Origin: an uncultured Ruminococcus sp.
GTDB taxonomy: Bacteria; Bacillota; Clostridia; Lachnospirales; Lachnospiraceae
NCBI GenBank assembly: GCA_900066355.1
Contig: FMEL01000017.1
Span: 11,935 to 75,934, forward strand
Length of the DNA stretch: 64,000 nt
Direction: 5' to 3'
In this document: one piece after another, positions 13,668-60,411 of the stretch
How positions within the stretch are numbered: position 1 is the first letter of the stretch
Layout: each line of letters begins with the position of its first letter
Program-made: the position numbers and the translations under genes
The notes under the pieces: generated by a model
Told to the model about the DNA's origin: nothing
The model's input: the letters and a program-made list of their open reading frames with translations, nothing else
The model's database searches: none

Positions 13668-13994
13668 GTGAATCAATACAATAAGGAGAATGATTACTCC
13701 GATTTCTTCGGAGCCACTTGTCCGGACTTATATGCTAACACCAGATACAACCTGTACCTACGCATGGACAAACTGATGAAAAACCATCTCATGTTCCTGC
13801 ATGACAGAAGGGTTCCGACAAGTAATAATGAAGCCGAGAGACAGCTTCGCAACTATAAAAGAAAGCAAAAGCAGGTCGTGTCCTTCCGGAGTAACCAAAG
13901 CCACGATTATCTCTGTAAAAGCATGAGCATGCTGGTTGTGATGCGACAAAATGAAAGTAACCTCTTTGATAGAGTATCCAGGATTCTGGATTAA
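13668..13994 (+). pseudogene. DDE transposase C-terminal remnant (IS66-like)
   Basis: 108-aa ORF with no N-terminal catalytic region. LMFLHDRRVPTSNNEAERQLRNYKRKQKQVVSFRS fits the F-L-x4-VP-x-(T/D)NNxAER-x-LR C-terminal pattern of IS66-type transposases. A matching IS end follows at 14059-14070. Confidence 0.55.
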
Positions 13995-14057
13995 GAAGAG
14001 CCAGTGGTTTTGACTGATTACAGTTTACACCACCGGCTTTTCTTAATCAAGTTCGCA

Positions 14058-14070
14058 CCTGAACAGTAAC
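14058..14070 (+). repeat. Probable right terminal inverted repeat of the IS66-like remnant
   Basis: CCTGAACAGTAAC lies about 75 nt after the transposase stop. Its reverse complement starts GTTAC. The last 12 nt match 11/12 with the end of the 27-bp mini-elements at 57677-57703 and 60377-60403. Confidence 0.5.
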
Positions 14071-56310: not shown

Positions 56311-57510
56311 TTAGTAGATTTTGTGGGTCTGATTCCGATACTGTGTCGGAGTCAGACCATATTTTTTCTTAAATACAGTCTGAAAGTAAGACTGACTGGA
56401 AAAACAAAGATAGTTACTGATTTCGCTTAATGTCTTATCCGAATATGTCAGGAGACTTTTTGCCTCTTCCAGCTTACACCGCATAATGAAGCTGCAGACA
56501 TCGAAGCCGAGCTCTTTTTTGAACTTGTTTGTCAAATAAGAGCGGCTTCTTCCGATATGCTCAGCTACATCGCCAACCTGAATGGATTCGTTGATGTGGT
56601 GAGTAATAAACTGAATACACTCAAATATTTCCAGAGACATTCCCTGAGGAATTTTATTTTGCGAAACCCGTTCCGTAAAATCAATCAGCATAGAATAAGA
56701 CAAGGTTTCAATGTGGGAAATATTCTGCAGCTTTTCACATTCACGGATATATACATCGGCAAGCTGGTAAGCCTGTTCCATATCCATTCCTCCGGCAATG
56801 GCACTTCTTGTAACAATTGCAACAGTTGTAATGAAAACATTCTTTTCCTGCCGGAGGGAGTTGTCAGCCATAAGACCACCCGATAATTCGGAGGGGGTGT
56901 TTAACAATGTTTTCATTTTTTCGACGTCTCCATTTTGAATATACTGCAGAAGTTTCTGTTCAAACTGGTAGGTATTATGAAAATGCTGTTCTTCCTTTGC
57001 ATTCATCACCTGATTGGAATGTACATTGGAAAACTCGCTGATGCTGCTTGTGTTTTCCAGATTAAAATGCTGTCCAACAGAAATATATTCATCGTTGAAA
57101 CACAGGTGAAGCCAGGCAAGTGTCTGGAGAAACTGGTTAAAGGAAATCTGAGGAATATTGACCAGAAATTGGAGTATATCCGGTTTGTGTTCCTGACTGA
57201 TTGCCCATTCCTGCATGAAAGTGCGAAGTGTAAGATCTGAAATAGGTGTGCTGAATACAGGGCCAATGATGATTACGCAATCAGCATGCTCCGGCTTTAT
57301 ATAACCATAATAGCCGAAGGACTGCGAGATAAAATAGTCCGGGTTTTTTGTGAAATGTCGGAAACCGGACAGGATGCCTTTAAAAACAGACGGATCTTCC
57401 AAAATCGAAGGAAAGGAACAGTCATTGTCGGGTGAAGCGTGGTAATAGCCAATCGGTATGGAGGTTGATGCATAAAATAATTCACAAAATGCCTTTAAAT
57501 CAGTAATCAT
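56311..57510 (-). CDS. AraC-family transcriptional regulator
   Basis: 399 aa. The C-terminal double HTH is VGDVAEHIGRSRSYLTNKFKKELG...LSEISNYLCFSSQSYFQTVFKKKYGLTPTQYR. It is divergent from the GH3 gene. Confidence 0.85.
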   Translation of the reverse strand: MITDLKAFCELFYASTSIPIGYYHASPDNDCSFPSILEDPSVFKGILSGFRHFTKNPDYFISQSFGYYGYIKPEHADCVIIIGPVFSTPISDLTLRTFMQEWAISQEHKPDILQFLVNIPQISFNQFLQTLAWLHLCFNDEYISVGQHFNLENTSSISEFSNVHSNQVMNAKEEQHFHNTYQFEQKLLQYIQNGDVEKMKTLLNTPSELSGGLMADNSLRQEKNVFITTVAIVTRSAIAGGMDMEQAYQLADVYIRECEKLQNISHIETLSYSMLIDFTERVSQNKIPQGMSLEIFECIQFITHHINESIQVGDVAEHIGRSRSYLTNKFKKELGFDVCSFIMRCKLEEAKSLLTYSDKTLSEISNYLCFSSQSYFQTVFKKKYGLTPTQYRNQTHKIY

Positions 57511-57611: not shown

Positions 57612-57634
57612 AATATTGTAATCAATATTGTAAT
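57612..57634. promoter_or_regulatory. Tandem direct repeat AATATTGTAAT x2 (12-bp period) in the araC/GH3 divergent region
   Basis: The two copies, 57612-57622 and 57624-57634, are identical. Direct repeats are typical AraC-type binding sites. Confidence 0.3.
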
Positions 57635-57668
57635 ACAAAAATTATATGGTTTGATATTTTATTTTATA

Positions 57669-57711
57669 GATAACTCGTAACTGTGAGGGTACTGAACAGT
57701 TACGATAACTC
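57669..57711 (+). mobile_element. 27-bp TIR mini-element (core 57677-57703) flanked by the 8-bp direct repeat GATAACTC
   Basis: GATAACTC[GTAACTGTGAGGGTACTGAACAGTTAC]GATAACTC. The 8-nt terminal inverted repeats are GTAACTGT/ACAGTTAC. Confidence 0.65.
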
Positions 57712-57740
57712 AATGAAAGTATTTAAAAGGAGAACTCAAC

Positions 57741-60380
57741 ATGGGAATGGAAGATTTTTGGGAACAGCTTCCGACAGGAAAAGAAGATAAACCATTGCTT
57801 TTTGAAATGGGACCGCTGGAGTACGATTTTCATGATATTGACGGATTGTATTTTATGCTGGATCGTCGACTATCCGGCTGTCTGCTTATGATGTGGGCAA
57901 AGCCGATGAATCCGGATATTCAGGGAACCGTCACCTTAGATAGCAGGGTGGTATCCGGCTGTATCAACCAATATATGGAAGTTATGGGAAATATGTGGGT
58001 GCTTGGAATTCCGCTTCGGGGACTTGTGACAGAGTACGGTCGGGAATATCAACTTCACGTGGAAGGTTTTGTGGACATGGATGGGAATGAGATGAATCCG
58101 CAGGATTTTACGGTCAGAGGTGTGGAAAAAGTGAAACCGAAGCCGGAAGATGCAGCACATGAACAGATTGCACTGGAAGCCGCCAGGGAGGGAATCGTTC
58201 TTTTGAAAAATGAGGCGGAAGTTCTTCCACTGAAGAAGGGAACGGTATTGAATCTGTTTGGCAGAGGTATTCACGAATTTCGTATCGGAGCAGTGGGGGC
58301 AGGCAAAATCAATCCTCGCTACAGTGTTAATTTTGTGGAGGCTGTCAGGGAAGGAGAAGCTTATTCACTGAATGAAGAACTGGTTGAATTTTACGGCTGT
58401 GACAGGGATGAGATACCGGAGGACGAGATGTTGATGCGTGCAAAGAAATTGTCCGATACGGCAATCGTGTTCCTGACACGTGCAGCAGGAGAAAACCAGG
58501 ATGCTTCCACGGCGAAAGGGGAATACTATCTGAGCGAGGCTGAAGAAGCACTTATTGCAAAAGTAACGGATACATTTGCAAAGACAATTGTGGTTTTAAA
58601 TGTCGGATATCCGATTGATGTGACATTTGCAGAAAAGTATGCAGTTGCAGGACTTATATATTCGGGATTTGGTGGAATGCTTGCAGGACCGGCACTTTCG
58701 GATATCCTGAGCGGGGCTGTAAATCCGTCAGGGAAGCTGCCGGATACATGGGCAAAGGATTATTTTGATATTCCGTCGTCGAAAAATTTCTATGACTGTG
58801 TAGATAAAACACGTCTGACAGCAGATGAAAATATATATGTGGATACTTGTTACGAGGAAGACATTTATGTGGGATATCGTTATTTTACAACATTCAGGAA
58901 AAAAGTGGCGTATCCGTTTGGCTACGGATTAAGTTATACAGAGTTTTGTATCAGGCAGGAGAATATTCGATTTGACGGGGAAGTACTGGAACTGGATGTA
59001 TATGTGAAGAATGTCGGGGAAAAAGCCGGAAAAGAAGTTGTTCAGGTTTATGTAGGCAAACCGGAATCAGAACTGGAGCAGCCGGAAAAAGAACTGGTAT
59101 TCTTTGAAAAAACAAAGGAACTGCTTCCGGGAGAGGAACAGAAGATTCCTGTTCATGTTCCGGTGAAAGTATTGACTTCATATTCGGAAGAAAAAGCGGC
59201 GTATATTTTATCAAAAGGATATTACCGTATTTATGTGGGAAACAGTATTGAAGCAGCGGAATGCGGCGGATTCGACGAAGAAGAAACAAGAATAATCAAA
59301 CAGGTAACCAATCTGCTTTGCTGCGATTACAAATTTACAAGATTATCCAAAACAAATCCGGATGATACATGGCCGACAGGAGCGCATTCCGGAGTGGTCA
59401 AAAATAAGTTGACATTTTTGCCTTATGAGAAGAGGAAACATTATCCTGCAAAGTTTGATATGGAGAAACCGGAAGAGAAGGTAACATTTGATGCTGTAAG
59501 AAAAAATCCGTCACGTGCGGCTGAGTTTGTGGCACAGATGTCACCGGAGGAACTTGCCCGCATCAGCATCTGTGCCTCGGCAGGGTGGGGAATGGAAGGT
59601 ATCGGTGAGGCAGGTCGTGTATTTCAGACAGAAGGATATGATTTGCCGGACTTTCCGGTGAGCGATGGAAACAGCGGAGTCAATCTGAACATCAAAAATA
59701 TTGGAATGCCGTCAGGCGTTACAATCTGTGCTTCGTTCAATAAAGAATTATCGGAAGCAATCGGGTGTGTAATCGGGGAAGAAGCGAAGGCATTGGGCAT
59801 GCCGCTGGTTCTTGCACCAGCATTTAATATTCACAGAAATCCGCTAAATGGACGACAGCCGGAATATTTTTCGGAAGATCCGTATTTGTCCGGTGTCATG
59901 GCCGGATTTTATGCAAAAGGATTGGAAGGAGCCGGGATCGGAAGCTGCTATAAACATTTTATCGGGAACAACTGTGAATCTTCCAGAAAGCGAAATCAGA
60001 GTCTGATTTCCGAACGTGCAATCCGGGAAATTTATTTCCGAACTTTTGAATATGCGATGGATGTTCATATGCCAGCCAGCTTTATGACGGCGTATAATGC
60101 GGTAAACGGCTGCCCGACAGCAGCGGATGAAGAACTTCTACAGGGGCTTCTCAGAGAAGAAAATGGGTTTGCCGGTTTTGTAATGACGGATTGGACAACC
60201 TATGACAGTGTAGATGTGGCAGCAATGGTACAGGCGGGAAACTGCTGGATTACGCCGGGCTCTAATGATGATACATATACCGGTCAGATAAAGAAAGGAT
60301 TGGAGAACGGTACCATAGACATGGCAAGACTTCAGGAGAATGTTACCGCTCTGATTCGTACAATGGCAAAATTTTCGTAA
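57741..60380 (+). CDS. GH3-family glycosidase with permuted domain order (sandwich/Fn3-like first, catalytic barrel last)
   Basis: 879 aa. LLKNEAEVLPL and the Fn3-like VQVYVGKP come early. SDGNSGVN, the KHF motif and GFVMTDW (nucleophile motif) sit in the last roughly 300 aa. Confidence 0.8.
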   Translation: MGMEDFWEQLPTGKEDKPLLFEMGPLEYDFHDIDGLYFMLDRRLSGCLLMMWAKPMNPDIQGTVTLDSRVVSGCINQYMEVMGNMWVLGIPLRGLVTEYGREYQLHVEGFVDMDGNEMNPQDFTVRGVEKVKPKPEDAAHEQIALEAAREGIVLLKNEAEVLPLKKGTVLNLFGRGIHEFRIGAVGAGKINPRYSVNFVEAVREGEAYSLNEELVEFYGCDRDEIPEDEMLMRAKKLSDTAIVFLTRAAGENQDASTAKGEYYLSEAEEALIAKVTDTFAKTIVVLNVGYPIDVTFAEKYAVAGLIYSGFGGMLAGPALSDILSGAVNPSGKLPDTWAKDYFDIPSSKNFYDCVDKTRLTADENIYVDTCYEEDIYVGYRYFTTFRKKVAYPFGYGLSYTEFCIRQENIRFDGEVLELDVYVKNVGEKAGKEVVQVYVGKPESELEQPEKELVFFEKTKELLPGEEQKIPVHVPVKVLTSYSEEKAAYILSKGYYRIYVGNSIEAAECGGFDEEETRIIKQVTNLLCCDYKFTRLSKTNPDDTWPTGAHSGVVKNKLTFLPYEKRKHYPAKFDMEKPEEKVTFDAVRKNPSRAAEFVAQMSPEELARISICASAGWGMEGIGEAGRVFQTEGYDLPDFPVSDGNSGVNLNIKNIGMPSGVTICASFNKELSEAIGCVIGEEAKALGMPLVLAPAFNIHRNPLNGRQPEYFSEDPYLSGVMAGFYAKGLEGAGIGSCYKHFIGNNCESSRKRNQSLISERAIREIYFRTFEYAMDVHMPASFMTAYNAVNGCPTAADEELLQGLLREENGFAGFVMTDWTTYDSVDVAAMVQAGNCWITPGSNDDTYTGQIKKGLENGTIDMARLQENVTALIRTMAKFS

Positions 60381-60411
60381 CTGTTCAGTACCCTCACAGT
60401 TACAAATTTTC
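60369..60411 (-). mobile_element. Second, inverted copy of the 27-bp mini-element (core 60377-60403) flanked by the 8-bp direct repeat AAATTTTC
   Basis: AAATTTTC[GTAACTGTTCAGTACCCTCACAGTTAC]AAATTTTC. The core is the exact reverse complement of 57677-57703 and supplies the GH3 stop codon. Confidence 0.65.

What the first reader, a model, noticed from the sequence alone, without database searches (positions are those of the whole stretch)
57669..60411. Two inverted 27-bp TIR mini-elements, each with its own 8-bp target-site-duplication-like repeat, bracket the whole permuted-GH3 gene
The left copy is GATAACTC[GTAACTGTGAGGGTACTGAACAGTTAC]GATAACTC (57669-57711), about 30 nt upstream of the start codon. 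The right copy is AAATTTTC[GTAACTGTTCAGTACCCTCACAGTTAC]AAATTTTC (60369-60411).

- The two 27-nt cores are exact reverse complements of each other.
- Each core has 8-nt terminal inverted repeats around an asymmetric 11-nt centre.
- Each core is flanked by a different perfect 8-bp direct repeat, which is the signature of transpositional insertion.

Removing the core plus one repeat at the right site restores ...GCA AAA TTT TCA TAG. That gives the same ...AKFS-stop as the present ...TTT TCG TAA, whose stop codon is supplied by the element.

The core end CTGAACAGTTAC matches 11/12 with CTGAACAGTAAC at 14059-14070, the expected right IR of the IS66-like remnant. As I recall, 8-bp duplications and IRs starting GTAA are IS66-family hallmarks.

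A 27-bp IR-IR element is far smaller than usual MITEs. Two inverted copies around a 2.7-kb gene could have several consequences:
- a cassette that is mobilised in trans;
- whole-gene inversion relative to the upstream promoter;
- matched hairpins at both mRNA ends, or 27-bp long-range pairing between the 5' and 3' ends of the mRNA.
Basis: partly seen in the sequence, partly recalled or inferred. Interest (0 to 1): 0.72.

Follow-up and report, generated by a model that had tools for sequence, protein, structure and literature searches.

The report
Two tiny transposon remnants flank gene
The two 27-bp inverted sequences around this gut-bacterial sugar-degrading gene are separate insertion scars of a small, previously undescribed mobile-element family, present in some strains and absent in others, with no sign that they move or flip the gene.

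Summary
An exact 27-mer lies at 57677-57703 and its exact reverse complement at 60377-60403. Each is flanked by its own perfect 8-bp direct repeat.

The 27-mer is the right-end module of a 133-143 bp MITE family that is widespread in Lachnospiraceae. The MITE has 12-14 bp terminal inverted repeats starting GTAAC and makes 8-bp duplications. Its ends match IS66-family elements. In at least 122 copies from 48 genomes, 54 are full MITEs and 23 are solo 27-mers, all with 7-8/8 duplications.

Strains of the same Blautia species show precise empty sites at both positions. An intermediate haplotype has the right site filled and the left site empty. So these were two independent, sequential insertions, and the gene was already in place.

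I found no inverted-gene junction and no cassette behaviour, and the protein is unchanged.

Solos are concentrated in genomes whose MITE left end is identical to the module's inner arm (p=7e-5). This favours collapse of a full MITE by deletion between direct octamers, as in Tn10 'nearly precise excision'. Direct transposition of the 27-bp unit is not excluded.

Verdict: a real, newly characterised MITE family with an unusual solo derivative. The functional speculations are unsupported.

The parts
57669..57676 (.). Left target-site duplication, copy 1 (GATAACTC)
   Evidence: Empty-site strains L132-135, L149 and L157-160 have a single GATAACTC here.
57677..57703 (+). Left solo 27-mer, the right-end module of the MITE family. 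It consists of inner arm GTAACTGT, spacer, and terminal TACTGAACAGTTAC. It lies 37 nt upstream of the GH3 ATG.
   Evidence: The nhmmer hit covers only MITE profile positions 104-134.
57704..57711 (.). Left target-site duplication, copy 2 (GATAACTC)
57741..60380 (+). Domain-permuted GH3 beta-glucosidase gene. It is bracketed by the elements but is not part of them. The last codon TCG and the stop TAA are completed by the right element.
   Evidence: The same gene in the same synteny without the elements is seen.
60369..60376 (.). Right target-site duplication, copy 1 (AAATTTTC)
   Evidence: Empty sites read ...GGCAAAATTTTCATAGAATAG.
60377..60403 (-). Right solo 27-mer, the exact reverse complement of the left copy. 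It was inserted first.
   Evidence: L149 has this site filled and the left site empty.
60404..60411 (.). Right target-site duplication, copy 2 (AAATTTTC). It contains the ancestral last-codon base, followed by the ancestral TAG stop.
13668..14070 (+). IS66-family transposase C-terminal remnant (13668-13994), a subterminal hairpin, and the right terminus ...CACCTGAACAGTAAC (14059-14070). It is a related lineage, not the direct parent.

Best explanation
**What it is.** Each 27-mer is a solo copy of the right-end module of a non-autonomous element (MITE, 133-143 bp) that IS66-family transposases mobilise in Lachnospiraceae.
- The full MITE reads: left end GTAACT[G/A]TTCAG, then a roughly 100-bp body with two covarying hairpins, then the module GTAACTGT-GAGGG-TACTGAACAGTTAC.
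- The module's inner octamer is a direct copy of the MITE's left terminus.

**History at this locus.** This is shown by population haplotypes.
- The GH3 gene was already in place.
- An element first inserted into the last codon of GH3, duplicating AAATTTTC.
- A second element later inserted in the opposite orientation into the 5' leader or promoter region, duplicating GATAACTC.
- Both targets fit the family's preference for AT-rich 8-mers starting GA.
- The filled right site also spread to another allele background by homologous recombination.

**How the solos formed (inferred, about 0.5).** A full MITE inserted and then collapsed by slipped-strand deletion between the two direct GTAACTGT octamers. 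The intervening hairpins would assist this. The result is the 27-bp palindromic stub plus both duplication copies, which is the same logic as Tn10 'nearly precise excision'.

**Consequences.** The insertions are selectively near-neutral. The protein is unchanged, because the element's GTAA supplies TCG-TAA in place of TCA-TAG. The inverted pairing around one gene is a by-product of two nearby insertions, not a device for moving or inverting the gene.

**Confidence.** The figure of 0.85 refers to the general claim: two independent IS66-type MITE-family insertions, polymorphic, with no cassette and no inversion. The collapse sub-mechanism alone I put at about 0.5.
For: - **Family and duplications:** searches give 122 exact copies in 48 genomes. 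Of these, 54 are full MITEs and 23 are solos, all with 7-8/8 duplications of different sequence.
- **Target preference:** one search shows the same oriented preference in solos and MITEs (position 1 G in 33/60, position 2 A in 48/60). Both window sites fit it.
- **IS66 link:**
  - The window remnant terminus matches at 11/12.
  - L152 1327-2753 is a 1,427-bp element encoding a PF03050 protein (E=4.5e-23). It has a roughly 25-bp TIR, an 8/8 duplication, and terminal 12 nt identical to the MITE left end.
  - PMC11946415 gives the IS66 hallmarks: IR starting GTAAGCG and 8-bp direct repeats.
- **Independent, sequential insertions:**
  - Empty/empty: L132-135 and L157-160.
  - Left empty, right filled: L149, which is only 9/2637 nt from the window allele.
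  - Filled/filled: the window and L119-127.
  - Relatives at 80% aa identity lack both elements, and L129 ends ...TTTTCATAG.
- **Recombination patch:**
- **Collapse model:**
  - Solos are enriched where the MITE left end equals the inner arm. There are 16 solos to 17 MITEs in 12 genomes, against 2 to 33 in 18 genomes with GTAACTAT left ends (Fisher p=7e-5).
  - The right terminus, and hence transposase recognition of the octamer, is the same in both groups.
  - The MITE body folds into two hairpins, and 16/40 predicted pairs show compensatory changes.
- **General pattern:** sister subfamilies keep the same three-site architecture and also give solos.
Against: - No full-MITE state was seen at either site in about 30 contigs of this species.
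- No full MITE occurs in the 64-kb window.
- The left insertion arose within only about 0.3% nucleotide divergence. A two-step history would have to be fast.
- Blautia genomes sampled mostly carry the GTAACTAT-type MITE, which rarely yields solos.
- No active transposase with exactly these ends was found in this species. The related IS66 genes recovered are mostly truncated.
- Copies within one genome are not independent, so the p-value is optimistic.
Confidence: 0.85

Rival explanations
1. The 27-bp module transposes directly. The IS66-type transposase treats the inner GTAACTGT as a left end and the outer ...ACAGTTAC as a right end. It moves the 27-bp unit itself, so each site went from empty to solo in one step. 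The left copy may be a local hop from the right copy.
For: - Both window sites show only empty and solo states in about 30 contigs. The second insertion is very recent and lies 2.7 kb from the first.
- The inner arm co-varies with the left and right termini across three subfamilies. This suggests it is a real transposase-recognised site.
- The 27-mer is invariant while MITE bodies diverge.
- One full MITE (L058) has the module's centre flipped yet keeps perfect duplications. This hints that 8 terminal bp may suffice.
Against: - From general knowledge of DDE transpososomes, two ends only 27 bp apart cannot easily be brought together. No element this small is known to move.
- Solos are 15-fold depleted in genomes whose MITE left end is GTAACTAT, although the octamer GTAACTGT and its complement at the right terminus are the same there. 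Homology-dependent deletion predicts this pattern, and transposase choice of ends does not.
Confidence: 0.33
2. The two inverted copies form a composite, trans-mobilisable cassette that brought in or can move the GH3 gene.
For: Two inverted ends bracket exactly one gene.
Against: - Each copy has its own, different duplication, and no shared outer duplication exists.
- The gene occupies the same synteny (GH2, AraC, GH3, rhamnosidase, MFS) without either element, both in the same species and in relatives at 80% identity.
- The intermediate right-only haplotype shows the ends arrived at different times.
Confidence: 0.02
3. The pair is an inversion switch. Recombination between the 27-bp inverted repeats flips the GH3 gene relative to its promoter.
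For: The inverted repeats are exact, 27 bp long and 2.7 kb apart.
Against: - The junction unique to the inverted state gave 0 hits, while the normal right junction gave 5 in the same collection.
- All 9 contigs shown of the 24 read for the identical protein, plus L136-137, have the normal order.
- No recombinase gene lies nearby. The neighbours are AraC, GH2, rhamnosidase and MFS.
- The denominators are small, so rare inversion is not excluded.
Confidence: 0.03
4. The insertions have been co-opted as RNA elements. They could act as hairpins at the 5' and 3' ends of the GH3 message, or as a 27-bp 5'-3' duplex (an RNase III target) that tunes GH3 expression or uncouples it from the downstream rhamnosidase gene. 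This would explain the very high frequency of the filled/filled haplotype.
For: - Predicted hairpins are -9.4 and -6.8 kcal/mol (z about -3.2).
- The intermolecular duplex is -48.3 kcal/mol.
- The filled/filled allele is by far the most common in public assemblies: 5048 index blocks against a handful for empty alleles.
Against: - No promoter could be placed, so it is unknown whether the left copy is transcribed.
- There is no terminator-like tail and no Rfam match.
- Allele frequency can reflect clonal success or hitch-hiking.
- Other solos sit in unrelated contexts.
Confidence: 0.1
5. The 27-mer is a REP-like or terminator-like palindrome family that spreads without target duplication, and the flanking 8-mers are coincidental.
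For: It is a short imperfect palindrome, mostly intergenic and multi-copy.
Against: - Perfect 8-bp duplications of unrelated sequence flank 16 solos and 42 MITEs.
- Empty sites carry exactly one copy of the 8-mer.
- The palindrome is the end of a TIR element with IS66-type termini.
Confidence: 0.01

Closest known systems
Bacterial MITEs derived from IS elements (for example Correia/NEMIS in Neisseria, RUP in Streptococcus pneumoniae, Nezha in cyanobacteria); recalled from general knowledge
   Same: - The 133-143 bp parent element is small and non-coding.
- It has terminal inverted repeats, fixed-length target duplications and many copies per genome.
- It shows presence/absence polymorphism and has ends that match a transposase-encoding IS.
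   Different: - The ends are IS66-type. I found no published IS66-derived MITE of this sequence.
- The right end carries an extra inward-facing copy of the left terminus, which co-varies across subfamilies.
- The family produces abundant 27-bp solo derivatives that keep both duplication copies.
IS66 family insertion sequences (PF03050 DDE transposase; IR starting GTAA..., 8-bp direct repeats; PMC11946415)
   Same: - Termini start GTAAC and duplications are 8 bp.
- The terminal 12 nt are identical to an IS66-family element (L152) and match the IS66 remnant in the same window at 11/12.
- A subterminal hairpin lies next to the right end in both.
   Different: - The window elements encode nothing and are 27 bp long.
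- The canonical IS66 IR is GTAAGCG..., whereas here it is GTAACTGTTCAG.
- No full-length active parent was recovered in this species.
Tn10 'nearly precise excision' remnants (Ross, Swan & Kleckner 1979; Foster et al. 1981; cited in the bibliography of bioRxiv 10.1101/2023.06.07.543989)
   Same: - Deletion between short direct repeats near the two ends of an inverted-repeat element.
- It leaves a small palindromic stub with both target duplication copies intact.
- It does not need the transposase and is helped by hairpin formation.
   Different: - The Tn10 remnant is 50 bp and comes from a 9.3-kb composite transposon in laboratory selections.
- Here the stub is 27 bp from a roughly 135-bp MITE, seen as natural polymorphism.
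- The full-element intermediate has not been observed at these sites.
REP/BIME elements and their RAYT transposases
   Same: Short, intergenic, imperfect palindromes in many copies, often in inverted pairs.
   Different: REPs do not make target-site duplications and are linked to Y1 (RAYT) transposases. These copies have 8-bp duplications and DDE/IS66-type termini.

Membership tests
MITE (non-autonomous TIR element) | Short, no transposase ORF, terminal inverted repeats | tested here: met
   The parent element is 133-143 bp with a 12-14 bp TIR, GTAACTGTTCAGTA / TACTGAACAGTTAC. The solo is 27 bp with 8-bp arms.
MITE (non-autonomous TIR element) | Fixed-length target-site duplication of variable sequence | tested here: met
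   There are 42 MITEs and 16 solos with perfect 8-bp duplications, plus 12 and 7 with 7/8, all of different sequence.
MITE (non-autonomous TIR element) | Multi-copy, with presence/absence polymorphism and precise empty sites | tested here: met
   At least 122 copies occur in 48 genomes. Precise empty sites exist for both window copies in same-species strains.
MITE (non-autonomous TIR element) | Ends match those of an autonomous IS | tested here: met
   L152 1327-2753 encodes an IS66-family protein and has an 8/8 duplication. Its terminal 12 nt are identical to the MITE left-end variant GTAACTATTCAG.
IS66-family-derived element | 8-bp direct repeats and IR starting GTAA | tested here: met
   The family hallmarks are taken from PMC11946415.
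IS66-family-derived element | Mobilised in trans by an IS66-family (TnpC) transposase | not testable with these tools
   This rests only on sequence similarity of the ends. No active cognate transposase was found in this species.
Nearly-precise-excision-type remnant | The stub equals the element minus the DNA between two short direct repeats near its ends, with both duplication copies kept | tested here: met
   GTAACTGT lies at MITE positions 1-8 and again 27 bp from the right end. The solo is exactly that deletion product, and both duplication copies are retained.
Nearly-precise-excision-type remnant | Dependence on identity of the direct repeats | tested here: met
   There are 16 solos to 17 MITEs where the left end is GTAACTGT, against 2 to 33 where it is GTAACTAT (p=7e-5). 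Copies within a genome are not independent.
Nearly-precise-excision-type remnant | The full element occupies the same site in ancestors or sister strains | tested here: inconclusive
   No full MITE was seen at either window site in about 30 contigs. No orthologous MITE/solo pair was found among species representatives.
Composite transposon / mobilisable cassette | One shared outer duplication; cargo absent from the empty site; ends acquired together | tested here: not met
   The two copies have separate duplications. The gene is present in empty/empty strains and in relatives. A right-only intermediate exists.
Invertible DNA segment (inverton) | Both orientations in populations and a nearby recombinase | tested here: not met
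   There were 0 inverted junctions against 5 normal. All assemblies have the normal orientation. No recombinase is among the neighbours. The denominators are small.
REP/BIME | No target-site duplication | tested here: not met
   8-bp duplications and single-copy empty sites are seen.
Known structured RNA family (Rfam) | Match to a curated covariance model | tested here: not met
   There were no matches with E<0.1 for the window region or for two MITE representatives.

The most novel reading that the evidence does not exclude
The 27-bp module is itself a mobile unit and would be the smallest transposable DNA known. It would be moved by an IS66-family transposase that uses the inward-facing octamer and the outer terminus as its two ends. 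This would imply a transpososome that can act on ends only 27 bp apart. It would also explain why the inner arm co-varies with both termini in every subfamily.
Probability: 0.3. Interest if true: 0.75.

Novelty: new variant of a known kind. Interest (0 to 1): 0.5.

Why it matters
- **New element family in common gut bacteria.** It defines a MITE family in abundant human-gut Lachnospiraceae (Blautia, Ventrimonas and others) that does not appear in the literature I could search. The family links to the poorly understood IS66 family, whose transposition mechanism is still unknown.
- **A handle on IS66 end recognition.** The three-site end architecture (left end, inward copy, right end, all co-varying) and the 27-bp solos with intact duplications give a concrete way to study what an IS66 transposase recognises.
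- **A natural excision example.** The solos may also be a natural case of nearly precise excision.
- **Practical uses.** The 35-bp presence/absence sites are clean strain markers for a very common gut Blautia. Such stubs can also be mis-annotated or can break assemblies.
- **For the GH3 gene itself** the finding is essentially neutral.

Tried and rejected
**Searches for an autonomous parent**
- Long-range TIR pairs in 0.9 Mb of fetched loci: none.
- tblastn of the IS66 remnant against those loci: only a self hit.
- Large ORFs next to 22 'other' copies: no transposase.
- Two protein searches from the remnant returned almost only truncated IS66 fragments. L139-146 and L153-155 are remnants. Only L152 gave a bounded element.

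**Searches for an orthologous full-MITE versus solo pair**
- Flank BLAST among 122 copies gave three orthologous pairs, none informative.
- No full-MITE state at the window sites appeared.

**Inversion**
- The metagenome scan for the inverted junction found nothing.
- The control scan shows the collection holds only 5 normal junctions, so the negative result is weak on its own.

**Other databases and scans**
- Rfam: no match.
- Plasmid collection: no match.
- Phage collection: only unannotated virome contigs.
- Literature: no paper contains the sequences or describes a Lachnospiraceae or IS66 MITE of this type.
- The promoter scan could not place the GH3 promoter, so I could not say whether the left copy is transcribed.

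**Considered and dropped**
- IS200/IS605-type hairpin ends, and IS110/IS1111 targeting of the 27-mer. The larger element has TIRs and duplications, which those families lack.
- Chance proximity. For 10-40 random copies in a roughly 3.6-Mb genome, 0.08-1.3 pairs within 3 kb are expected. The bracket alone is therefore not significant.
Full report
**1.

- The 27-mer GTAACTGTGAGGGTACTGAACAGTTAC is at 57677-57703. Its exact reverse complement is at 60377-60403.
- No further copy with up to three mismatches occurs in the window, and none appears in shuffled sequence.
- GATAACTC flanks the left copy on both sides. AAATTTTC flanks the right copy on both sides.
- Between them lies one ORF, 57741-60380 (879 aa). 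It is a GH3 enzyme with its domains in permuted order.
- The gene ends ...TTT TCG TAA, with the G and the TAA supplied by the element.

**2. The 27-mer belongs to a large repeat family**

Almost all are Lachnospiraceae, including Blautia, Ventrimonas, Lacrimispora and many MAGs.
- About 70% of the 122 copies share a conserved sequence on one side.
- That sequence is the body of a 133-143 bp element. It starts GTAACT[G/A]TTCAGTA and ends with the 27-mer, so its TIR is 12-14 bp.
- Counts: 54 such MITEs have 7-8/8 flanking duplications, 23 copies are solo 27-mers with 7-8/8 duplications, and 45 are at contig ends or decayed.
- The duplicated 8-mers all differ but share an oriented preference. Position 1 is G in 33/60 and position 2 is A in 48/60, and the rest is AT-rich. 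Solos and MITEs show the same preference, and both window sites fit it.

**3. Family assignment: IS66-type**

- The window holds an IS66-family transposase remnant at 13668-13994 (PF03050).
- Related remnants in three unrelated contexts lose homology exactly after ...CTGAACAGTAAC. That is therefore the true IS terminus, and it matches the MITE terminus at 11/12.
- L152 1327-2753 is a 1,427-bp element that encodes a 351-aa PF03050 protein (E=4.5e-23). It has roughly 25-bp TIRs and a perfect 8-bp duplication (TTTTTTTG). Its terminal 12 nt, GTAACTATTCAG, are identical to the Blautia-type MITE left end.
- IS66 hallmarks (IR starting GTAA..., 8-bp direct repeats) are as stated in PMC11946415.
- No paper in the searchable library contains these sequences or describes such a MITE.

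**4. History at this locus**

The GH3 protein is annotated as Blautia obeum / multispecies Clostridia.

| Haplotype (left, right) | Loci | Source |
|---|---|---|
| filled, filled | window, L119-127 | |
| empty, filled | L149 | |
| empty, empty | L132-135, L157-160 | |
| variant upstream, filled | L136, L137 (L138 partial) | |
| variant upstream, empty | L131 | |

- Nine contigs with the identical protein all carry both elements in the same orientation.
- Alleles about 1.5% different in nucleotides are precisely empty at both sites. They have one copy of each 8-mer and lack exactly 35 bp.
- L149 has the right site filled and the left site empty. It differs from the window allele at only 9/2637 positions. 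So the right insertion came first and the left one later.
- L136 and L137 carry the filled right site on a different allele background. This is explained by a patch of about 400 bp identical to the window haplotype, that is, by homologous recombination.
- Relatives at 80% aa identity keep the synteny (GH2, AraC, GH3, rhamnosidase, MFS) without either element. One of them ends ...TTTTCATAG, like the predicted empty site.
- The elements therefore did not bring in the gene and do not behave as a unit.

**5.

- *Cassette:* contradicted by section 4.
- *Inversion:*
  - The junction unique to an inverted gene gave 0 hits, while the normal right junction gave 5 in the same collection.
  - All assemblies examined have the normal order, and no recombinase is nearby.
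  - The denominators are small, so rare inversion is not excluded.
- *RNA hairpins or 5'-3' pairing:*
  - The hairpins are modest (-9.4 and -6.8 kcal/mol). A 27-bp duplex would be very stable (-48.3 kcal/mol).
  - The promoter could not be placed, there is no terminator tail, and nothing matches Rfam.
  - This stays untested speculation.
- *Chance proximity:* two copies within 3 kb is not improbable if the genome holds tens of copies.

**6. How a 27-bp solo arises**

- The module's inner octamer, GTAACTGT, is a direct copy of the MITE's left terminus. It is also the inverted complement of the outer terminus.
- MITE copies found through their body alone, without selecting on the 27-mer, show that sister subfamilies keep this architecture with three-way co-variation:
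  - left GTAACAGTTCAG with module GTAACAGTTCAG-CTTGT-CTAAACTGTTAC;
  - left GTTACTGTTCAC with module GTTGCTGT-GAACGGA-GTGAACAGTAAC.
- A solo of the third type with a 7/8 duplication also exists, along with older, mutated type-i solos.
- Two routes fit these facts:
  - (a) A full MITE inserts and then collapses by deletion between the two direct octamers, across a body that folds into two hairpins. Of 40 predicted pairs, 16 show compensatory changes. This is the logic of Tn10 nearly precise excision.
  - (b) The transposase uses the inner and outer sites as two ends and moves the 27-bp unit itself.
- The best discriminator I could compute is the ratio of solos to MITEs by genome type:
  - Solos are common where the MITE left end is GTAACTGT: 16 solos to 17 MITEs in 12 genomes.
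  - Solos are rare where it is GTAACTAT: 2 to 33 in 18 genomes (Fisher p=7e-5).
  - The octamer and the right terminus are the same in both groups. Transposase recognition should therefore not differ, whereas homology-dependent deletion should. This favours (a).
- Against (a):
  - No full-MITE state was seen at either window site in about 30 contigs.
  - The second insertion is very recent.
- My estimates are about 0.5 for (a) and about 0.3 for (b). The general claim (two independent IS66-type MITE-family insertions, polymorphic, with no cassette and no inversion) I put at about 0.85.

**7. Verdict**

- The feature is real and the transposon reading is right.
- It is not an exotic gene-flipping or gene-moving device.
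- Its value lies in the newly characterised MITE family, its unusual three-site right end, and the 27-bp duplication-flanked stubs.

Noticed in passing
L001 5039-5181, L063 ~933-1065 and about 50 other loci (not in the window): The body of the 133-143 bp MITE is highly diverged between subfamilies but keeps two hairpins through compensatory changes (16 of 40 predicted pairs). The second hairpin is followed by a T-run. There is no Rfam match. It may be a structured RNA or ssDNA element, or a terminator carried by the MITE.
   Followed up: partly
L058 5620-5752: This is a complete MITE with a perfect AAATAAAT duplication, but the 11-bp centre of its 27-mer is inverted relative to the rest. That suggests loop inversion between the 8-bp arms. 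It is one case in about 75.
   Followed up: partly
window 57640-57668; L121-123, L126: A 5-bp indel polymorphism (ATTTTATTTTATAG versus ATTTTATAG) lies immediately upstream of the left insertion site within the filled/filled haplotype.
   Followed up: no
L131, L136, L137, L138 (upstream of GH3): In some strains the whole region upstream of GH3, up to 24 nt before the RBS, is replaced by unrelated sequence. A DDE_Tnp_1 transposase gene lies nearby instead of the AraC regulator.
   Followed up: no
window 57612-57640: A tandem direct repeat, ATATTGTAATCA / ATATTGTAATAC, lies between the divergent AraC-family regulator gene (56311-57510, minus strand) and GH3. It is a candidate operator and is conserved in the empty-site strains.
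   Followed up: no
L153-L155 3501-4290; L144-146; L139-143: Truncated IS66-family transposase fragments (128-238 aa) with intact right termini are conserved at fixed positions in many assemblies. They lie next to Eco57I-like, PDDEXK, relaxase or PIN genes. Full-length genes of this lineage were almost never recovered.
   Followed up: partly
L152 278-1307 and 1327-2753: Two IS66-family elements sit tail-to-tail only 19 bp apart. One ends ...CTGTACAGTAAC and the other ends ...CTGAATAGTTAC.
   Followed up: partly
phage collection MT839053.1, MT839183.1, MT835858.1 (L156) and three others: MITE copies and one solo 27-mer (6/8 duplication, just after a terminator hairpin) occur on unannotated human-faecal virome contigs. 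This is a possible route for spread between genera.
   Followed up: partly
L003, L014, L015, L017, L022, L092 (Ventrimonas faecis contig ends): Many contigs of this isolate assembly break about 46-50 bp inside the MITE. The family is therefore abundant enough there to fragment the assembly.
   Followed up: no
window 57741-60380: The GH3 protein has its Pfam domains in permuted order (Glyco_hydro_3_C, Fn3-like, Glyco_hydro_3 N-terminal domain). The identical sequence is extremely common in human-gut assemblies (5048 index blocks).
   Followed up: no
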